Below are positions 16,322 to 50,224 of a stretch of DNA of 64,000 nt, piece after piece. The translations under genes were made by a program, and so were the position numbers. Position 1 is the first letter of the stretch, and each line of letters opens with the position of its first letter. Source of the DNA: a virus; the IMG/VR virus record IMGVR_UViG_3300035053_000291; one strand, written 5' to 3'. The notes under the pieces are model-generated. The model was not told where the DNA came from and ran no database searches. It was given only the letters and a program-made list of their open reading frames with translations.

Positions 16322-16370
16322 TCCTATGCCGGGGGTCGAACCCGGATCATGCTGCCAACTGGCCATAGGC
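16322..16370 (-). ncRNA. Anticodon-less tRNA-like element 1
   Basis: G-CCTATG...CATAGG-A acceptor-like stem, D-loop-like CAGTTGGC, T-arm CCGGG-TTCGACC-CCCGG; no anticodon arm. Confidence 0.65.
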
Positions 16371-19253: not shown

Positions 19254-19369
19254 GTTGTTTTTCTCCTATATCAGCCAGACAACCGCTTCTCAGGCTGTCA
19301 GCTGTCTTGTTTTTTTCAAAAAATGTGGTCCTTTCCGGAATTGAACCGGTCTGGACCATGGTGAAAAGG

Positions 19370-20239: not shown

Positions 20240-20283
20240 TCCCAAGCAGAGGAATCGAACCTCTGGGAAGGCCATTCTTGGGC
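20240..20283 (-). ncRNA. Anticodon-less tRNA-like element 2
   Basis: G-CCCAAG-AATGGCCTTCC-CAGAGG-TTCGATT-CCTCTG-CTTGGG-A; 6+6 bp coaxial stack. Confidence 0.7.
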
Positions 20284-20810
20284 AGTTGTTTTTTTTCTTT
20301 TTTTTTCACAGGTGTTTTATTGCGTTCTTTTCCTGTGAGTTTTTTCTTTGTGTGGGGATTTTTTTTGTTTATGAAAATGTTTTTTGATTTAATTTTTTCA
20401 TGTTTTTTGCTTTTTTTTTCTCCTTATGTATCTCCACCCTATCCGTCCCATTTTTCACGAAAAAAAAAAATATTTTGAAAAAGAAAAAAAATTGGAACAA
20501 AAAAATAAATTGGAAAAAAAATTCGCAACAAAAAAAGAAAAAAAAGAAAAAATAAAAAAAGCAACAAAAGGAAAACAGGTCATCTAGGCATCTTGAGGCA
20601 GGAGGAGGAGGGGAGGGGCGGAGTGTGGGTTGCGGGGCAAAAATTTATTTTTGGCAGGGGTTCAGGGTGCCATAATGGGTCTCAAAATGTCTCTCAAAAA
20701 AGGTCTCATTCTCGGTCCCGAAATCTCTCTCAAATCGGGAACCTGTTTCTCCCTTAGAATGGACAGCTGTCCCCTTAGAAGAAAAAAAATTTAAAAAAAA
20801 TTTTTTTAGA
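20284..20810. other. Poly(T)/poly(A) tract region with G-rich run and short TCTCAAA repeats; possible origin or control region
   Basis: T-tracts 20284-20420 mirror A-tracts 20460-20580; G-runs 20601-20637; GGACAGCTGTCC flanked by CCCTTAGAA direct repeats. Confidence 0.4.
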
Positions 20811-20931
20811 GGTTTTTCTCTTTAGGTAGGTATGCCAGGATATTTTCCCCTCCTGGCTGGGTTGGATGCATCCCTTCCAGGTTATTTCTTTATTTTATAG
20901 GGGAATATGGCAGAAAAAGGCTTGTTTTGAA

Positions 20932-21006
20932 TAGCGGGAGATGGACTCGAACCACCGATCTGGAGGATATGGGCCTTCCGGGATGACCAGGCTTCCCCAT
21001 CCCGCT
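20932..21006 (-). tRNA. tRNA-Met(CAT), archaeal initiator-type, altered anticodon arm
   Basis: 75-nt cloverleaf AGCGGGA/TCCCGCT, A1:U72, D-stem GGGA/TCCC, TTCGAGT T-loop; CCA not encoded. Confidence 0.9.
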
Positions 21007-21329
21007 AAAAGGAGTATGGTTGCAGGAAAAAAAGCATTCATTTAGGGGACAAAAGCCATACGAAAGATCCTGCAACCATGGTTTACCTATGGCAAGCAAT
21101 ATCACAAATTGAATCTAGAGGTAAAAAGGCTTGTTTCGGGAGGGAGAAAAAGGGAGAAAGAAATGCAAAAAAAGCCCTTCTTCTCCCCGGTGATATGTAT
21201 GAATGGCAGAGATGAGGGGCATTTGAACAAAAAATCTCTATGTATTGGCAGATACGAGGAATAAATAATGCACTCTGCCCCTCATTACAATTCTACAGGA
21301 GTATATTGGGAGGTAAAAAGGCTTGTGTT

Positions 21330-21611
21330 CTACAAAGAATCGATGACTTTGAGTGCTTCCATGATCTTATCTTCAGGGATATGGTAAAAGGTGTGTTTCT
21401 TATTGTCTTTTTTCTTCTCTATTATTCCTATCTTTTTTAAGTGTATATGATAAATGTGTGACATCTCTATCGGTGGAAGGTTGGTTTTCTTACCCAGATC
21501 GCTCTGTTCTATCTTCCGTGGTGCGATCTGAATCAGAACATTGATGATCTTTCTCGTCTGACGGGGCTTATTTTCTTCCATCTCATCACATAAAACGATA
21601 TCTGTTGACAA
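21330..21611 (-). CDS. ArsR-like wHTH regulator
   Basis: IEQSDLGKKTNLPPIEMSHIYHIHLKKIGIIE...HTFY; probable leaderless start ATG 21581. Confidence 0.7.
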   Translation of the reverse strand: MSTDIVLCDEMEENKPRQTRKIINVLIQIAPRKIEQSDLGKKTNLPPIEMSHIYHIHLKKIGIIEKKKDNKKHTFYHIPEDKIMEALKVIDSL

Positions 21612-21656
21612 AAAGGCTTGTTCTCAAAAGAAAAAAAGAAAGGGTGTTGATTCCCT

Positions 21657-22600: not shown

Positions 22601-22656
22601 TACATCAGGACAGGACTCGAACCTGTTCTCTTTTATTGAGGGCCATTGCTGATGTC
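22601..22656 (-). ncRNA. tRNA-like element 3 (vestigial 3-bp central hairpin)
   Basis: G-ACATCAG-CAATGGCC-CTCAATAAAAGAG-A-ACAGG-TTCGAGT-CCTGT-C-CTGATGT-A. Confidence 0.65.
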
Positions 22657-25738: not shown

Positions 25739-25984
25739 TCATTTTTTCTTTTTCTGGCACTCAGTGCAAATGAATCTTCCCGTGGTGGTGTCAAGTGTTC
25801 CCTCTTCCTTGTTCTCCAGACAACTGTCGCAGACATATCTGATCTTCTTTTTTTTGGTCACTTTGATGTGTTCTCCTCGTTCTTTCATGGTAGTTGTTTC
25901 AATCTTCTTTTTCTTTCCCAGGTCTTTGAACAGCGAAAACGCATCTTCAAAATCCGGGACGATAGCGGTTATCAGATAACTCAT
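25739..25984 (-). CDS. Zn-finger protein
   Basis: CDSC...CTEC. Confidence 0.7.
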   Translation of the reverse strand: MSYLITAIVPDFEDAFSLFKDLGKKKKIETTTMKERGEHIKVTKKKKIRYVCDSCLENKEEGTLDTTTGRFICTECQKKKK

Positions 25985-28200
25985 TTTGTTTCCTCCTTTG
26001 GTTTTTGAAAAAAGAATTGGTTTGCCTGTGATGGTGAAAAGGTGAGTTTCGGCGGCATCTCCGCTGAGGTGTTGTAGGTGTAGATCACCATCATATGTGG
26101 TATCTTGATGTTCACGAACAAGACCATGATGCGGGATTTCTTTCCTTCTTCGGAGAGTTTATTATGATAAGCGATCTCCGGGCCGATCTCCTCTTTCTTC
26201 AAGGTCTCACTCCGTGGACTGATGTAACACTTGACAGATAAGACTGTGTATGATTCATCCTCATGTTGTAGGACGAAATCTGGTTTTCCATGGGTATCTG
26301 AGTAATCAGAATGCTGGATGTATTCCACCTTTTCCAGCACATTAGGAATGATGTATCCTTCCTCAAGGATGTTCTCTATCCAATCTTCGAACAATCCACC
26401 CAGTACATAACTCATGGTCCCCCGGAATTGTTTCTTCCGATACTTGACCGCTTCAATGCTGGTGTATTCTATGGGGATGTTCAATTTATTACGCTGGTCC
26501 TCACTCTGTGATATCTCATAGATCTGCCTGTTGGTGTAGATATCATAGTTTCCAATGCCTTCTCCCATCATGTAGACCACTGCACGTTCCTGTTGTGAGG
26601 GGTCACTTTCCAAGATGGTGTTGATGAGTTCCTCTTCAGATATCTGGAATTCGATGATATTGTCTGATGTATGGGTTGCCTTCTCCACCAGTTCCTTATC
26701 CTGTTCCTTGGTAGTTATCTTCTTTGTCGCTGTTTTCCCGGATTTCTGTTCCTCTGGATGCATCTGATGCCACAGGTAGAGCAGATGGTCGTAGATCTTC
26801 CTGAAATTAGCTGGTTTTTCTATCAATTGCCGATGAGAGGAGATCTTTCTTCGGGCAAGGTCTTTGATGATGTTTCTTCCTTTGGCCATGTGTGGTGATA
26901 TCTGTTCATCTTCACAGATCTGGATAAGTCGTTGTGCGACCCGTTCGATATTATCCCGTTCATCCATGTTGCTATAATGATATTTGATGATACGGTCATC
27001 CAATGATTTTATTTTATTATTCAATATCTTCTTGAAGAATGAGCGGACATGTGGTTTCAACGGTTCGAAATCCCGTGGGTCCTGGTCCTTTGCCAGGACA
27101 TCTGTCAGGAAATTGATCAGTGACCGTCTCCGGTCTTCTTGCTTGGCGAATGGATCATACGGGGGCATCAGCAGGTCTTTGTTGCTGTAGATGAACTGTG
27201 CCCACTGGTCCAGTGTCTCCGTGTCTGCCTTTATCTTCTTCTGAAATCCTTTTCCGCCGATGACATGTTTGACCACGTTCTTTGGTGCTGGAGGAGCATA
27301 CAACCAACCGATCTCTTTGGTGTACATGTCCTTGACCACAGACCATGATTTCGCATCCATGTCCTTTCCCCGTCTCCACTTGGCTTCCTTTTCCCCCAGT
27401 TTCTTCAGCCAGTATGAAGTGATCCGTTTACGGATGGTCTGTTCCCGTTTCTCATCCATGGCGCTGAGTCCTTTGTATATCTCAAATAACTTGTTCTGAT
27501 GGAATGTCTGGTCAATGGTCGGTAACTGCGGACCCCAGACGATGAAGAGTAATGCAGAAACAGTTGCGATGTTCTCCGGTAAGAATTGTTTCAGTGCATC
27601 CGGGTCTTTATGATGCCTGTCGATGAGTTCGATGATCTTATCCGGTATTGGTTTTCCATAGGTCTTTTCCGCCCGATGAAGTAATACTCTCTTTCGGTAG
27701 ATGTGACGGATAGCATTGTATTTCTCAATGGCCTCCATCATGGCATCAGATGTTCCCCTTCGGGCATGTTGGCTGCCATCTTCATCTCCTCCGCCCATCG
27801 GATCGTCGATGCTCATGTAGATGACATCACATTCTGGATCAATCTCACTTAATACATTGGGAAAAAATGAGGCTTCCAAACACTGACACCTGTCGCCATA
27901 GAATTCCTTAAGATGATAGCCGATAGCACGGCTGAGTGTCGACTTTCCGGTAGAAGGCCCCCCGTAGATGTGGATGCTCATCAGTTCGATCTTTGCATCC
28001 GGTATCGGCATCTCGATGGTCTTGAAAAATTTCTCCGTGAGGTTCTTCTCATGTTTCTTCCACTGCGGCAGTCCTGCTTTCGTGGAACGGAACATATCCG
28101 AATTGTGCCTGATCCCTGTCTCTTTCGACGTCCCGATGTTACACGGGTCGATCAGGCTGGAAAGGTCACCGTCGCATCCAAGGGAGTTTTGACTTCCCAC
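25981..28200 (-). CDS. P-loop ATPase fused to C-terminal PD-(D/E)xK-like nuclease
   Basis: IHIYGGPSTGKST, YMSIDD; C-terminal GLFE..GKPDFVL..SVKC. Confidence 0.7.
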   Translation of the reverse strand: MGSQNSLGCDGDLSSLIDPCNIGTSKETGIRHNSDMFRSTKAGLPQWKKHEKNLTEKFFKTIEMPIPDAKIELMSIHIYGGPSTGKSTLSRAIGYHLKEFYGDRCQCLEASFFPNVLSEIDPECDVIYMSIDDPMGGGDEDGSQHARRGTSDAMMEAIEKYNAIRHIYRKRVLLHRAEKTYGKPIPDKIIELIDRHHKDPDALKQFLPENIATVSALLFIVWGPQLPTIDQTFHQNKLFEIYKGLSAMDEKREQTIRKRITSYWLKKLGEKEAKWRRGKDMDAKSWSVVKDMYTKEIGWLYAPPAPKNVVKHVIGGKGFQKKIKADTETLDQWAQFIYSNKDLLMPPYDPFAKQEDRRRSLINFLTDVLAKDQDPRDFEPLKPHVRSFFKKILNNKIKSLDDRIIKYHYSNMDERDNIERVAQRLIQICEDEQISPHMAKGRNIIKDLARRKISSHRQLIEKPANFRKIYDHLLYLWHQMHPEEQKSGKTATKKITTKEQDKELVEKATHTSDNIIEFQISEEELINTILESDPSQQERAVVYMMGEGIGNYDIYTNRQIYEISQSEDQRNKLNIPIEYTSIEAVKYRKKQFRGTMSYVLGGLFEDWIENILEEGYIIPNVLEKVEYIQHSDYSDTHGKPDFVLQHEDESYTVLSVKCYISPRSETLKKEEIGPEIAYHNKLSEEGKKSRIMVLFVNIKIPHMMVIYTYNTSAEMPPKLTFSPSQANQFFFQKPKEETK

Positions 28201-47511: not shown

Positions 47512-48597
47512 CTATTGATACATAATTCTATCATATTCATCAATCTTCTTTGTTTTTCCTTCTTTCTTCTTGACAGTTGTCGGAATCTCTTCCAACATGG
47601 TCTTGACCTTTGATATATTATCTTCTATGATGTTGATATGTTTCAACAACCCTTTCTGTTTCTTTTCCAATTGTGCTACTCGATCTTCTATGTTTTCGTC
47701 AACTGTCGGCTGTTTTCTGAATTCGTTGATTTCTTTTCTGACCTGTTTGAATTCATTTTCCACATAACCCATCAAATCCCATGATTCCAATGCATCCACT
47801 GCATCATAGAGATCATTATCCAGTAGTGTCTGTTCAAAGTCTGCATTTCCTGAAGACATGTCCAGCATCTTTCCATCGATGTTTAATGAGAATCCTGCCG
47901 CCACTCGCTTTGCTTTTGGCGATAATGCTTTTTTTGTGACGTGTGGTTTCTGGATGCAGTGTAGGTCTTTCCATGATATCCTGATGTGTGCTTTTTTCTG
48001 GAACCATTTGAGCGCTTCGTAGACAATAGAGAATATGGCTACTCTTGCCGAGTCTAATGATTCTTTTGCAAATGGCATTTCTGGAATTATAATAATCAGA
48101 TTATCTTTACCGTGTTTTTCGAACGTCCATGCATCGAATTCATCGAAGATTTTGACCTTGTATTTGCGGACTGCACAATTTCCTCTATCATATTTGTTAC
48201 ATTTCTCGAAGAAACTACTGTACTCTCTCTCAATCTTGGTTTGATACCTCGCCTTCTGTAGAACGATTTCACGTCTAGGTCGTGGTTTGGTTGACAACTT
48301 TTTTTGGTCGTCTTCATCGTCTTTTTTCAGTTTGTAGACATCGTCAAACTCAATATATGTTGCTTCGTAGAATTTGATTCTTTCTTCAGGATTGATACAT
48401 TTGATTAAGTTATTTTTTTGGAATTCTTTAATTGTTTTTGAAACATATTGTCTACTAATACCGACGTATTTGGCAACTTTTGACTGTGTTAGCTGGTATC
48501 CTTTTCCATCCTTATGTTGCCCGGTTAACAGTTCATAGATCTCTTTTTTCTTATTGTTAGCCGATTTCACACCATCCCTCGTTTCTGCTCTGCCCAT
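47512..48597 (-). CDS. N-terminal wHTH protein, possible replication or regulatory protein; C-terminus MYQ
   Basis: LTQSKVAKYVGISRQYVSKTIKEFQKNNLI; probable GTG start near 48571. Confidence 0.7.
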   Translation of the reverse strand: MGRAETRDGVKSANNKKKEIYELLTGQHKDGKGYQLTQSKVAKYVGISRQYVSKTIKEFQKNNLIKCINPEERIKFYEATYIEFDDVYKLKKDDEDDQKKLSTKPRPRREIVLQKARYQTKIEREYSSFFEKCNKYDRGNCAVRKYKVKIFDEFDAWTFEKHGKDNLIIIIPEMPFAKESLDSARVAIFSIVYEALKWFQKKAHIRISWKDLHCIQKPHVTKKALSPKAKRVAAGFSLNIDGKMLDMSSGNADFEQTLLDNDLYDAVDALESWDLMGYVENEFKQVRKEINEFRKQPTVDENIEDRVAQLEKKQKGLLKHINIIEDNISKVKTMLEEIPTTVKKKEGKTKKIDEYDRIMYQ

Positions 48598-50224
48598 TTG
48601 TTTTTAATCCACTAAACCACCCTATTGTCAACCAAGTTGTCAACCAAGCTGACAAGGCGGTTTTCATTGCGTCTTTCCTCACCATTTTGCTAGTCCCATC
48701 CAGCAGAAACTTTGGTGAGATTCTAAAATAATATAATTGCTTTGATAAAAATATATTCGTTGTTGGTTTACCACCTCCAAAAAAAAGAAAGAAAAAGGGG
48801 ATCACAATGCATTCAAAACTGGGCCGAAATCGAAAAGTTTCGAACAGAATCTCTCCCGTTGGCCATTCCTGGGCCTCGGCGGGCCCATACTCGCTTCTCG
48901 AAGGGATTCCATTCGAAACAGGGGTTTTTGGCCCTTGTTTCGATTTTAGCGTACTTTCCTCTCTCCATTTTTTTGGAAATTTGAGGGCACGCTTGACCCA
49001 GTCAAAATGATGTCGATAATAATATTCTTCAGCATGTTGAAGATACCGTTCTTCAGTTGTTTTGATGGTATCGTGTCCTAAGAATGTGCTTACCCATCGT
49101 ATCGGATCTGGGTGTTTTTCTTCCCATTTATGTGTGATCCACATGATTGCTGCTGTATGCCGCATACAATATGGGTGATATCTCTCATCAACCAATTTCC
49201 CTTTCAGCCTGAGATTTTTTCCAAATGTTTTCAGAGTCCATGGTTTTCCAGTATATGGTGAAATAAACAGTCTGTCCCCTTTGTAATTTGGCGACACGAA
49301 CTTCGGTCTGATTCGGTAGTAGAAATTAGAGAAACTTTTTCTTGTCTTTGCATGCAACAATGAGTCAATAAGATACAACGGTCTTGTGGAATAGTGCTTT
49401 TTCTTTTCCACAACTCGGATATATGGTCTTTTCAGATCGTAAAGGTGGTTTGTCCGCATCATCCAGAGTTCGCTTGGCGGTCTAACACCCAACATAAATC
49501 CAAAGAAGAAAATGTATTGCCAGTACCTGTTTATTTCACGATCGTCATCGTATCCATCAAAGTGAAAAAACTTCGTGAATGTTTTAGGTTCCAACACCAA
49601 TACTTCTTTTCTTTCTGGTTTTGGCGGTAGACGATACTTATTCCATGGGTGATCTGGTAGGCCATATGCTTGTCTAAATGCTTCAGTTACATCTTTCCGA
49701 TGTTTGAGTCCGTAAAAGTTTTTTCCTGTTTCAGCGTCATAATAGTTTTGCTTATACCATTTCATGTGGTACCTGAATTGAGCGTAGTTTAGATTGAAAA
49801 AATCTATTGGAAAGGGATTCTCCTTTTCTGATGTTGCCATCAATCTTGCATATCGGCGGTAATGATTTATTGTTTCTTCTGACCGGTATAATTCTTCATC
49901 TGCATATTGTAAAACTGCATTGAGTAGTTCTTCAAATGTCTCATACGCTGAAGGATCTATAGCAAAAGGGTCTGCATTGTGATTGTTAATTATCTTGCTT
50001 ACATTTTTATGTTCCACCTGCCCCCCAACCTTTGTGGTTGATCTTCGGTCGACAAGTGGGCGTCCAAAATTGTTTTCTTTGCATTCTTCTTTTGTACCTC
50101 CCCCGTCTGCTTCTCGAGACGGTGGGAGTATATTGTTCTCTTTCTCTTTATTATTTTCCCTATTATCTAAATTAAATGAAAACGAAATGTTTTGGTTTGA
50201 TTCGTGTTCTTTTTCCCATCTCAT
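48557..50224 (-). CDS. int: Tyrosine recombinase/integrase
   Basis: GVRPPSEL (Arg), HPYCMRHT, FLGHDTIKTTEERY; low-complexity C-terminal extension after YGPAE. Confidence 0.9.
   Translation of the reverse strand: MRWEKEHESNQNISFSFNLDNRENNKEKENNILPPSREADGGGTKEECKENNFGRPLVDRRSTTKVGGQVEHKNVSKIINNHNADPFAIDPSAYETFEELLNAVLQYADEELYRSEETINHYRRYARLMATSEKENPFPIDFFNLNYAQFRYHMKWYKQNYYDAETGKNFYGLKHRKDVTEAFRQAYGLPDHPWNKYRLPPKPERKEVLVLEPKTFTKFFHFDGYDDDREINRYWQYIFFFGFMLGVRPPSELWMMRTNHLYDLKRPYIRVVEKKKHYSTRPLYLIDSLLHAKTRKSFSNFYYRIRPKFVSPNYKGDRLFISPYTGKPWTLKTFGKNLRLKGKLVDERYHPYCMRHTAAIMWITHKWEEKHPDPIRWVSTFLGHDTIKTTEERYLQHAEEYYYRHHFDWVKRALKFPKKWREESTLKSKQGPKTPVSNGIPSRSEYGPAEAQEWPTGEILFETFRFRPSFECIVIPFFFLFFGGGKPTTNIFLSKQLYYFRISPKFLLDGTSKMVRKDAMKTALSAWLTTWLTIGWFSGLKTNGQSRNEGWCEIG

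What the first reader, a model, noticed from the sequence alone, without database searches (positions are those of the whole stretch)
20932..21006. Initiator-type tRNA-Met with changes confined to the anticodon arm
Seen: the body is archaeal-initiator-like (A1:U72, AGCGGG start), but the anticodon arm has A29:U41 in place of the third G:C pair, an A28-C42 mismatch, C33 in place of U33, and U38. Known: some VapC toxins cleave initiator tRNA in the anticodon stem-loop, and phage tRNAs can carry nuclease-evading substitutions. Inference: a nuclease-resistant replacement initiator tRNA, or alternatively a decaying tRNA.
Basis: partly seen in the sequence, partly recalled or inferred. Interest (0 to 1): 0.6.

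Follow-up and report, generated by a model that had tools for sequence, protein, structure and literature searches.

The report
Virus-type variant start-codon tRNA gene
An uncultured archaeal virus-like DNA element carries its own start-codon (initiator) tRNA gene with an unusual anticodon arm; parts of that arm also occur in some archaeal cells, but one change (U38) was found only in virus-encoded initiator tRNAs, so it is a new example of a little-described viral habit and not a one-off.

Summary
A complete 75-nt tRNA-Met(CAU) lies on the minus strand at 20932-21006 (ARAGORN; Rfam tRNA 45.5 bits). It has A1:U72, an A28·C42 mismatch, A29:U41, C33 and U38.

- **Carrier:** an uncultured archaeal virus- or plasmid-like element. 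The tRNA sits in a ~0.52-kb accessory insertion that the closest relative lacks.
- **Shared with cells:** C33 is native in cellular initiators of Thermoplasmatota and DPANN archaea (26 of 86 distinct sequences). A29:U41 occurs in a DPANN sub-lineage (6 of 86), usually together with C33.
- **Not seen in cells:** U38 (0 of 86) and the 28:42 mismatch (0 of 86).
- **Recurs in viruses:** U38, C33 and A29:U41 appear in many virus-encoded initiator-type tRNAs. Bacterial-type phage initiators have the near-identical arm CAAGG-CCCATAT-CCTTG. The archaeal virus ANMV-1 has TCAGG-CCCATGA-CCTGA.
- **Published link:** U38 lies at the VapC cut site (A38|C39) and replaces a base that KEOPS needs to make t6A37.

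My reading is a probably functional accessory initiator tRNA of a recurrent viral design. Nuclease evasion is plausible but untested. The host is unknown, I found no expression data, and the anticodon stem is weak, so drift or a processing-signal role remain possible. Earlier scan notes reported C33 in viral tRNAs on other DNA.

The parts
20932..21006 (-). Initiator-type tRNA-Met(CAU) gene, 75 nt, no encoded CCA. It has A1:U72, G11:C24, an A28·C42 mismatch, A29:U41, G30:C40, G31:C39, C33, U38 and A73.
   Evidence: ARAGORN; Rfam RF00005 at 45.5 bits over the full model; sequence parsed.
20962..20978 (-). Anticodon arm GAAGG-CCCATAT-CCTCC, the part that differs from canonical archaeal initiators (xxGGG-CTCATAA-CCCxx).
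   Evidence: As an isolated hairpin it folds at -0.1 kcal/mol, against -5.3 to -6.0 for cellular initiators.
21016..21079 (-). Perfect 12-bp hairpin (ATGGTTGCAGGA / TCCTGCAACCAT, loop of about 40 nt) that ends 9 nt upstream of the tRNA 5' end. It may be a leader structure of the tRNA transcript. Its function is unknown.
   Evidence: Sequence; present in both the MFE and the centroid fold of the unit.
20914..20925 (-). Motif ACAAGCCTTTTT, 7 nt after the tRNA 3' end. It is one of four exact copies that bound three short units. The T5 run is a plausible archaeal terminator, or part of a promoter for the next unit.
   Evidence: four exact copies, all on the minus strand and all within 20914-21621; 0.44 matches expected by chance at one mismatch..
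21123..21134 (-). Motif ACAAGCCTTTTT at the start of the hairpin + tRNA unit.
20810..21329 (-). About 0.52 kb of accessory DNA that the closest related element (L012) lacks. It holds a hairpin unit, the hairpin + tRNA unit and a ~110-nt tail.
   Evidence: L012 is collinear up to the 93-aa gene (tblastn). It then runs straight into the A/T tract, palindrome and GAGAATGAGACC region, which in the window begins near 20810.
21330..21611 (-). 93-aa HTH-like gene immediately upstream of the insertion. It is the last collinear gene shared with L012.
   Evidence: weak HTH_micro match; 49% identity to L012:15430-15672.

Best explanation
This is a real, structurally intact initiator-type tRNA-Met gene that an uncultured archaeal virus-like element acquired as a small accessory cassette.

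Inferred mechanism: it is transcribed with its own short flanking signals. Host RNase P and RNase Z trim it, and the host CCA-adding enzyme completes the 3' end. Host MetRS charges it (CAU anticodon, A73). aIF2 delivers it (A1:U72) to the ribosomal P site, where the two retained G:C pairs 30:40 and 31:39 and the R:Y pair A29:U41 would act.

Its anticodon arm belongs to a design that recurs in virus-encoded initiator tRNAs of bacteria and archaea (A29:U41, C33, U38). The most likely benefit is that the arm no longer presents the surface that host factors aimed at the initiator anticodon stem-loop recognise. Those factors are, first, PIN/VapC-type nucleases that cut at A38|C39, and second, the KEOPS t6A37 machinery, which needs A38. 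The element would then keep a supply of usable initiator tRNA during infection.

Shown here: the gene, its features, its accessory status, and the recurrence of the features in viruses but not (for U38) in cells. Inferred: expression, charging, use in initiation, and nuclease insensitivity.
For: (1) It is a full-length tRNA at 45.5 bits, with all four stems and the tertiary-interaction bases in place. 20 of 21 stem pairs are standard, and the differences from cellular initiators in the acceptor and D stems are compensated.
(2) Initiator identity is retained: A1:U72, G11:C24, CAU, A73, G30:C40 and G31:C39. The role of A1:U72 is described in PMC5393177. The au/GC/GC stem is a natural, functional initiator variant (PMC5389676).
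(3) It lies in a ~0.52-kb insertion absent from the closest relative. No tRNA was found in 12 related loci, two of which extend 10 kb downstream. This points to gain rather than an old remnant.
(4) It is framed by the same 12-nt motif as its neighbouring units, with a T5 run right after the 3' end.
(5) U38 is absent from all 86 distinct cellular archaeal initiators sampled, from about 285 genomes. These include the near-identical arm CAAGG-CCCATAT-CCTTG on bacterial-type initiators.
(6) The archaeal virus ANMV-1 carries an initiator-type tRNA with A29:U41 + C33 and the same variable loop and T stem.
(7) VapC cuts initiator tRNA between A38 and C39 (PMC4105405). A38 is essential for t6A37 formation by KEOPS, and A38U abolishes it (PMC8887486). 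The phage-tRNA nuclease-evasion hypothesis is PMC10264068.
Against: The host is unknown, so I could make no host-versus-element comparison. C33 and A29:U41 may simply be inherited from a DPANN- or Thermoplasmatota-like donor.

The A28·C42 mismatch leaves the isolated anticodon hairpin at -0.1 kcal/mol, against about -5.5 in cells. The cloverleaf is 5-9 kcal/mol weaker than in cellular initiators, and the Rfam score is about 10 bits lower than theirs. This is what relaxed selection on the arm would also produce.

No VapC or PIN nuclease that targets initiator tRNA is documented for archaea in what I read. The evasion hypothesis itself is computational (PMC10264068). No tRNA-repair or nuclease gene lies nearby.
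Confidence: 0.45

Rival explanations
1. A donor-type arm with no evasion role. The tRNA was copied from a host or donor lineage whose initiator already has C33 and A29:U41, as in some DPANN archaea. It simply raises the initiator supply or compensates for host shut-off. U38 and A28·C42 are neutral or slightly harmful later changes.
For: The arms CGAGG-CCCATAA-CCTCG and CAAGG-CCCATAA-CCTTG are native in small DPANN genomes (G001, G378, G089, G337, G036, G192, G345). C33 is native in Thermoplasmatota and DPANN initiators, 26 of 86 distinct sequences. L154 shares the window's exact acceptor and T stems. The insertion looks recent relative to L012, which leaves little time for many adaptive changes.
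Against: No sampled cellular initiator is closer than about 80% overall or 51 of 58 in the body, so no donor is identified. U38 is absent from all sampled cells yet recurs in many unrelated viral initiators, which argues for selection over drift. I found no host link to DPANN: the core protein was found in 0 of 401 genomes and the element's palindrome is not enriched.
Confidence: 0.22
2. A tRNA-shaped RNA-processing signal. The gene serves mainly as an RNase P / RNase Z cleavage site, a full-size 't-element', in the element's transcripts. Only the acceptor/T 'top half' is under selection and the anticodon arm drifts.
For: The element carries several mini-tRNAs that have an acceptor stem and T arm but no anticodon arm, at about 16322-16370, 19315-19360, 20240-20283 and 22601-22656 on the same strand (earlier notes e1-5351298 and e1-5351300). 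The tRNA's weak point is exactly the anticodon stem, while the acceptor, D and T stems are perfect.
Against: The exact CAU anticodon, the 7-nt loop, C32, A37, G30:C40, G31:C39, A73 and A1:U72 are all retained, although a pure processing signal needs none of them. The element's other t-elements dispense with the anticodon arm altogether. The arm's divergence (about 2 unique changes in 17 nt) is no greater than that of the body. The same arm variants recur on viral tRNAs that sit in ordinary phage tRNA arrays.
Confidence: 0.15
3. A decaying pseudo-tRNA: a captured initiator gene that is losing function, with damage so far visible in the anticodon arm.
For: There is an uncompensated A28·C42 mismatch. 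U38 replaces an otherwise invariant A38. The Rfam score is about 10 bits below cellular initiators and the anticodon hairpin is marginal. Relatives of the element do without the tRNA.
Against: All the other stems and the conserved tertiary bases are intact, and the differences there are compensated. The gene is identical in every copy of the element recovered from seven samples. It is neatly framed by the unit motif. U38, and even A28·C42, recur in diverged viral tRNA families, which decay would not predict.
Confidence: 0.12
4. An attachment site: the tRNA is, or contains, the att site used by the element's tyrosine integrase.
For: The element encodes a tyrosine recombinase at 48557-50224. tRNA genes are common integration targets (general knowledge).
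Against: It is a whole tRNA rather than a 3' fragment. It lies about 28 kb from the integrase and is internal to element DNA on both sides. No partial second copy of 15 nt or more exists in the window. The closest relative lacks it.
Confidence: 0.03

Closest known systems
Canonical archaeal initiator tRNA-Met (e.g. the 86 distinct cellular sequences sampled here; A1:U72 role in PMC5393177)
   Same: A1:U72, AGCGGG/CCCGCU acceptor stem, R11:Y24, CAU anticodon, A73, G30:C40 and G31:C39, 75-nt cloverleaf with a 5-nt variable loop.
   Different: A28·C42 mismatch and U38, each 0 of 86 in cells. A29:U41 in place of G29:C41 (6 of 86 in cells) and C33 in place of U33 (26 of 86 in cells). T-loop G59. 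Carried on a mobile element.
Cellular initiators of a DPANN sub-lineage (L077/G001, G378, G089, G337, G036, G192: CGAGG-CCCATAA-CCTCG; G345: CAAGG-CCCATAA-CCTTG)
   Same: A29:U41 together with C33; G345 also has A28. L154 has the same acceptor stem and T stem.
   Different: They keep A38 and a fully paired 28:42. Their D arms and T loops differ, and overall identity is about 80% or less. No independent link between the element and these genomes was found.
Phage-encoded bacterial-type initiator tRNAs with variant arms (IMG/VR L176-L185: CAAGG-CCCATAT-CCTTG; Pseudomonas phage D3 and BUCT566: C33; Phaeobacter phage MD18: U38; huge phages LR756504 and LR745206: CAAGG-CTCATAA-CCTTG)
   Same: The same combination of A28, A29:U41, C33 and U38 on an initiator-type tRNA carried by a virus.
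   Different: These have the bacterial 1:72 mismatch (C1·A72) and a bacterial-type D arm, 28:42 is paired, and they usually sit in phage tRNA arrays. The window's tRNA is archaeal-type and solitary.
ANMV-1 virus of ANME-1 archaea, unannotated tRNA at KP703175.1 25877-25952
   Same: Archaeal-type initiator-like tRNA on an archaeal virus; A29:U41 + C33; identical variable loop (AGATC) and T stem (GGTGG/CCATC); 76% identity.
   Different: Loop CCCATGA (G37, A38) instead of CCCATAT; different D arm; imperfect acceptor stem. Its genome is otherwise unrelated: the core protein of the window's element has no match in the phage collection.
Nuclease-insensitive phage tRNAs (hypothesis of van den Berg et al. 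2023, PMC10264068) and VapC cleavage of initiator tRNA at A38|C39 (Winther & Gerdes 2011, cited in PMC4105405)
   Same: A virus-encoded tRNA with substitutions in the anticodon loop at or next to a known cleavage site.
   Different: That work concerns bacteria and their phages, and it reports that phages mostly avoid encoding tRNA-fMet where VapC targets it. No archaeal nuclease or target is known here, and nothing was tested.

Membership tests
tRNA (Rfam RF00005) | Cloverleaf that matches the covariance model above the gathering score | tested here: met
   45.5 bits against a cut-off of 29, model positions 1-71 of 71; ARAGORN call.
Archaeal/eukaryotic-type initiator tRNA-Met | [quoted passage not shown] | tested here: met
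   A1 and U72 read directly; the role of this pair is described in PMC5393177.
Archaeal/eukaryotic-type initiator tRNA-Met | CAU anticodon and A73 discriminator (MetRS identity) | tested here: met
   Sequence. Aminoacylation itself cannot be tested here.
Archaeal/eukaryotic-type initiator tRNA-Met | Three consecutive G:C pairs 29:41, 30:40 and 31:39 | tested here: not met
   Only 30:40 and 31:39 are G:C; 29:41 is A:U. The au/GC/GC variant is a known natural, functional form in bacteria (PMC5389676) and occurs in 6 of 86 cellular archaeal initiators sampled, so this is a variant state and does not exclude membership.
Archaeal/eukaryotic-type initiator tRNA-Met | Purine 11 : pyrimidine 24 in the D stem (own knowledge: Marck & Grosjean 2002) | tested here: met
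   G11:C24; all sampled cellular initiators have G or A at position 11.
Archaeal/eukaryotic-type initiator tRNA-Met | Anticodon loop C32-(U/C)33-CAU-A37-A38 | tested here: not met
   The loop is CCCAUAU. A38 is invariant in 86 of 86 cellular sequences, and the window has U38.
Archaeal/eukaryotic-type initiator tRNA-Met | Charged with Met, bound by aIF2, used at the P site | not testable with these tools
   Needs biochemistry or tRNA sequencing.
Virus-encoded nuclease-insensitive tRNA (PMC10264068) | Encoded by a virus or mobile element | tested here: met
   The element has an integrase, PCNA, a Type III R-M pair and mostly orphan genes. The tRNA lies in an accessory insertion. Whether the carrier is a virus or a plasmid is not settled.
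Virus-encoded nuclease-insensitive tRNA (PMC10264068) | Anticodon-loop substitutions relative to the host's tRNA at the recognition or cleavage site | tested here: inconclusive
   U38 is at the bacterial VapC site (PMC4105405) and is absent from all sampled archaeal cells. The host is unknown, and C33 is native in some lineages.
Virus-encoded nuclease-insensitive tRNA (PMC10264068) | The host has a nuclease that cuts its own tRNA but not the viral one | not testable with these tools
   No host genome is available, and no archaeal initiator-targeting nuclease appears in the papers I read.
t-element / tRNA-like processing signal | Acceptor + T-arm mimic that lacks a functional anticodon arm | tested here: not met
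   A complete anticodon arm with CAU and a 7-nt loop is present, unlike the element's own mini-tRNAs.

The most novel reading that the evidence does not exclude
Viruses of both bacteria and archaea have converged on a 'stealth initiator' design. An initiator tRNA keeps everything needed for charging and factor delivery but changes positions 33 and 38, and weakens 28:42 and 29:41. Host enzymes that disable or mark the cell's initiator at the anticodon stem-loop (VapC-like PIN nucleases cutting at 38|39, or the KEOPS t6A37 machinery) then no longer act on it. The window's gene would be the first archaeal-type example with the full set of changes, and would point to an undescribed initiator-targeting defence in archaea.
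Probability: 0.25. Interest if true: 0.75.

Novelty: new member of a known kind. Interest (0 to 1): 0.5.

Why it matters
Initiator tRNA is a single point of failure for translation, and bacteria are known to attack it with VapC. If viral initiator genes with U38/C33/A29:U41 arms are insensitive substitutes, they mark a counter-defence that spans both prokaryotic domains. They would also predict initiator-targeting nucleases in archaea, where abundant PIN/VapC toxins mostly lack known targets.

On the practical side, the survey shows that C33 and A29:U41 are normal in the initiators of whole archaeal lineages (Thermoplasmatota, DPANN). Those two features alone should not be read as viral adaptations. 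U38 is the feature that separates viral from cellular initiators in this sample.

Tried and rejected
- **Miscounted patterns:** two collection scans were wasted on patterns with miscounted N runs. Later patterns were built by script and tested on the window first.
- **Exact-arm and body patterns:** the exact-arm pattern and the corrected body pattern each gave nothing in IMG/VR. The body pattern in JGI metagenomes gave only four canonical initiators.
- **Neighbouring 300-aa protein:** it is an orphan and led only to copies of the same element at 99.9-100% identity.
- **Host search, all without result:**
  - No whole genome is held for the window.
  - The 739-aa core protein was not found in 401 DPANN genomes (the phylum of G002 returned the same genome set as G001), in 301 genomes of the phylum of G804, in five further handles, or in the phage collection.
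  - One distant hit in Thermoplasmatota lies in an unrelated locus.
  - The element's over-represented palindrome GACARYTGTC is not enriched in 10 candidate genomes.
  - Sample accessions are not mentioned in the paper library.
  - The NCBI record behind L017 is not held.
- **att-site idea:** rejected; there is no partial tRNA copy in the window.
- **Nearby genes:** no tRNA-repair, CCA-adding, nuclease or toxin genes were found near the tRNA.
- **Mini-tRNAs:** they are not derived from the tRNA, because their acceptor stems are unrelated.

Full report
**What is there.** ARAGORN finds one tRNA in the 64-kb window, tRNA-Met(CAT) at 20931-21007 on the minus strand. Rfam's tRNA model matches 20932-21006 end to end at 45.5 bits (gathering score 29, E = 2.2e-8) when the region is scanned. 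A first whole-window pass at gathering threshold had listed nothing.

In addition it has G11:C24, G30:C40, G31:C39, C32, A37 and A73, and no encoded CCA. The acceptor stem (7 pairs), D stem (4 pairs) and T stem (4 Watson-Crick pairs plus one G·U) are intact.

**What carries it.** No whole genome is held for the window.
- The window is dominated by small and orphan genes on one strand. Recognisable genes are a PCNA, an AAA ATPase, a tyrosine integrase, a Type III restriction-modification pair, a DUF998 protein and RHH/HTH regulators. Together with the archaeal-type tRNA, this points to an archaeal virus- or plasmid-like element, as earlier notes of this scan also concluded.
- The same element occurs at 99.9-100% identity in seven metagenome assemblies, and the tRNA is identical in each.
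- A 739-aa core protein (25981-28200) defines a family of related elements at 31-83% identity, some with inteins. Twelve related loci were fetched, and none has a tRNA. Two of them extend 10 kb downstream of the core gene.
- The closest relative, L012, is collinear up to the 93-aa gene at 21330-21611. It then runs directly into the A/T tract, palindrome and GAGAATGAGACC region, which in the window begins near 20810.
- So about 0.52 kb (roughly 21329-20810) is accessory DNA in this element: a hairpin unit, the tRNA unit with a perfect 12-bp leader hairpin, and a short tail. It is punctuated by four exact copies of ACAAGCCTTTTT that occur nowhere else in the window in exact form.
- No partial copy of the tRNA exists in the window, so it is not an att duplication.

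**Is the arm unusual for cells?** I sampled cellular archaeal initiators in two ways.
- A pattern search of 401 genomes of the DPANN phylum of G001 left positions 29, 33, 38 and 41 free; 154 genomes had a match.
- Together these gave 86 distinct sequences from about 285 genomes.

| Feature | Cellular archaeal initiators (86 distinct sequences) |
|---|---|
| Position 33 | U in 60, C in 26 |
| Pair 29:41 | G:C in 80, A:U in 6 |
| Position 38 | A in all 86 |
| Pair 28:42 | paired in all 86 |

C33 is the native state in MAGs labelled Thermoplasmata or Thermoplasmatota and in Woesearchaeota/Nanoarchaeota. L054 carries an NCBI label of Methanosarcinales, but the tool places it in the same phylum as G001. 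A group of small DPANN genomes has CGAGG-CCCATAA-CCTCG, and G345 has CAAGG-CCCATAA-CCTTG. The window's arm is GAAGG-CCCATAT-CCTCC.

So two of the four 'odd' features (C33 and A29:U41) are ordinary in some archaeal lineages. A29:U41 is also a documented natural and functional variant in bacteria (PMC5389676), and C33 is native in metazoan and plant initiators (PMC8887486). Only U38 and the A28·C42 mismatch were not found in any cell.

The claim that changes are confined to the arm is also too strong. Outside the arm, no sampled cellular initiator matches better than 51 of 58 positions. The body differences are in loops or are compensated pairs, so no donor can be named.

**Is the arm unusual for viruses?** No, and this is the most informative result.
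- An IMG/VR scan for the loop GGCCCATATCC plus a T loop found 10 viral contigs. Eight of them sit in phage tRNA arrays and encode a bacterial-type initiator (C1·A72) with the arm CAAGG-CCCATAT-CCTTG. That arm has A28, A29:U41, C33 and U38. It differs from the window's only at 27:43 and in having U42 where the window has C42.
- Counts under strict criteria (1:72 mismatch or A:U/U:A, R29:Y41, A73) are in the table below.
- Named viruses show the same positions varying:
  - Pseudomonas phages D3 and BUCT566 have C33.
  - Phaeobacter phage MD18 has U38.
  - Two huge phages have CAAGG-CTCATAA-CCTTG.
  - The archaeal virus ANMV-1 carries an unannotated archaeal-type initiator with TCAGG-CCCATGA-CCTGA and the same variable loop and T stem as the window's tRNA.
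- A separate viral family of short-D-arm tRNAs keeps an A28·C42 mismatch across five diverged copies.

| Loop variant in viral initiator-type tRNAs | Contigs | Distinct sequences | With A29:U41 (contigs) |
|---|---|---|---|
| U33 + U38 | 57 | 37 | 33 |
| C33 + U38 | 9 | 2 | 9 |
| C33 + A38 | 77 | 66 | 32 |

**What the changes would do.**
- VapC of enteric bacteria inactivates initiator tRNA by one cut between A38 and C39 (PMC4105405, citing Winther & Gerdes 2011). U38 changes the base at that bond.
- A38, with C32 and U36, is required for t6A37 formation by KEOPS, and A38U abolishes it. C33 is an anti-determinant for some t6A machineries (PMC8887486). Applying this to archaeal KEOPS is my inference.
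- In E. coli initiator tRNA, C32·A38 and an A37-(G29:C41) triple shape the initiator-specific loop conformation (PMC2528185). Both are altered here.
- The hypothesis that phage tRNAs escape anticodon nucleases through loop substitutions is published, but it is computational (PMC10264068). I found no paper that treats viral initiator tRNAs with this arm, or any archaeal case.

**Against function.** The mismatch leaves the isolated anticodon hairpin at -0.1 kcal/mol, against -5.3 to -6.0 for cellular initiators. The cloverleaf is at -21.5 against -26 to -30. The Rfam score is about 10 bits below cellular initiators of the compared lineages, which score 55-58 bits.

The element also uses anticodon-less mini-tRNAs, presumably as processing signals. 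A full tRNA kept only for RNase P/Z cleavage, with a drifting arm, is therefore a fair rival. Against that rival, the anticodon, loop size, C32, A37, the two G:C pairs, A73 and A1:U72 are all retained, and the arm has diverged no more than the body.

**What could not be settled.** Every attempt to name the host failed, and no expression data could be obtained.

**Verdict.** This is a real, intact, initiator-type tRNA gene gained as an accessory cassette by an archaeal virus-like element.
- Its arm combines two features that some archaeal cells also have with two that, in this sample, are seen only in viruses.
- The same design recurs in viral initiators of both domains.
- The nuclease-evasion reading is plausible and fits a published hypothesis, but it is untested.
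- Inheritance from the donor, a processing-signal role and early decay all remain open.
- I class it as a new member of a known kind (virus-encoded variant tRNAs), with moderate interest because of the cross-domain recurrence of U38.

No claim here rests on the two unpublished genomes flagged (G246, G336). G246 contributed one canonical row and is not used in any count that matters.

Noticed in passing
window 20914-21621 (minus strand): Four exact copies of ACAAGCCTTTTT at 20914, 21123, 21315 and 21610 bound three short units: the 93-aa gene, a ~190-nt hairpin unit, and the hairpin + tRNA unit. Only the 12-nt core is shared between the junctions. It could be a local promoter/terminator or a cassette junction.
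   Followed up: partly
window 21140-21320 (minus strand): The gene-free ~190-nt unit between two motif copies holds a ~10-bp inverted repeat (ATGAGGGGCA ... TGCCCCTCAT). It may be another small RNA in the same insertion.
   Followed up: no
L189 = KP703175.1 25877-25952 (ANMV-1 virus): An archaeal-type initiator-like tRNA-Met (A29:U41, C33, G37) is not annotated in the GenBank record. It is overlapped by a CDS named 'anaerobic ribonucleoside triphosphate reductase'.
   Followed up: partly
L234, L243, L295, L297, L309, L226, L250 (IMG/VR contigs): A family of viral CAU tRNAs has a very short D region (22 nt before the anticodon stem) and the arm GATGG-CTCATAT-CCGCC. The A28·C42 mismatch and a U29·G41 pair are kept across diverged copies.
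   Followed up: no
L026, L046, L067 and others; L077, L094, L101, L109, L110, L136, L054: C33 is the native state of the cellular initiator tRNA in many Thermoplasmatota and DPANN genomes. A DPANN sub-lineage also has A29:U41. I did not find this described in the papers I searched.
   Followed up: partly
P0002, P0009, P0010, P0021, P0026 (relatives of window 25981-28200): Some members of the element's 739-aa core protein family (weak nSTAND3 match) carry inteins (Intein_splicing, LAGLIDADG_3), which suggests an essential NTPase.
   Followed up: no
L054 (CAYHXI010000106.1), L061 (QNBN01000197.1), L072 (JAIWAT010000042.1): Labelling oddities. The MAG labelled 'Methanosarcinales' (L054) falls in the same phylum set as the Woesearchaeote G001. 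MAGs labelled Spirochaetes and Anaerolineales carry contigs with archaeal-type initiator tRNAs, so those contigs are probably mis-binned.
   Followed up: no
window 1-64000: The whole-window Rfam scan at gathering threshold missed the tRNA, although it scores 45.5 bits in a local scan. Negative whole-window Rfam results should be read with care.
   Followed up: yes
window 16322-16370, 19315-19360, 20240-20283, 22601-22656 (minus strand): All four mini-tRNAs have ATGG (ATGGCC in three, ATGGTC in one) just after the 5' acceptor strand.
   Followed up: no
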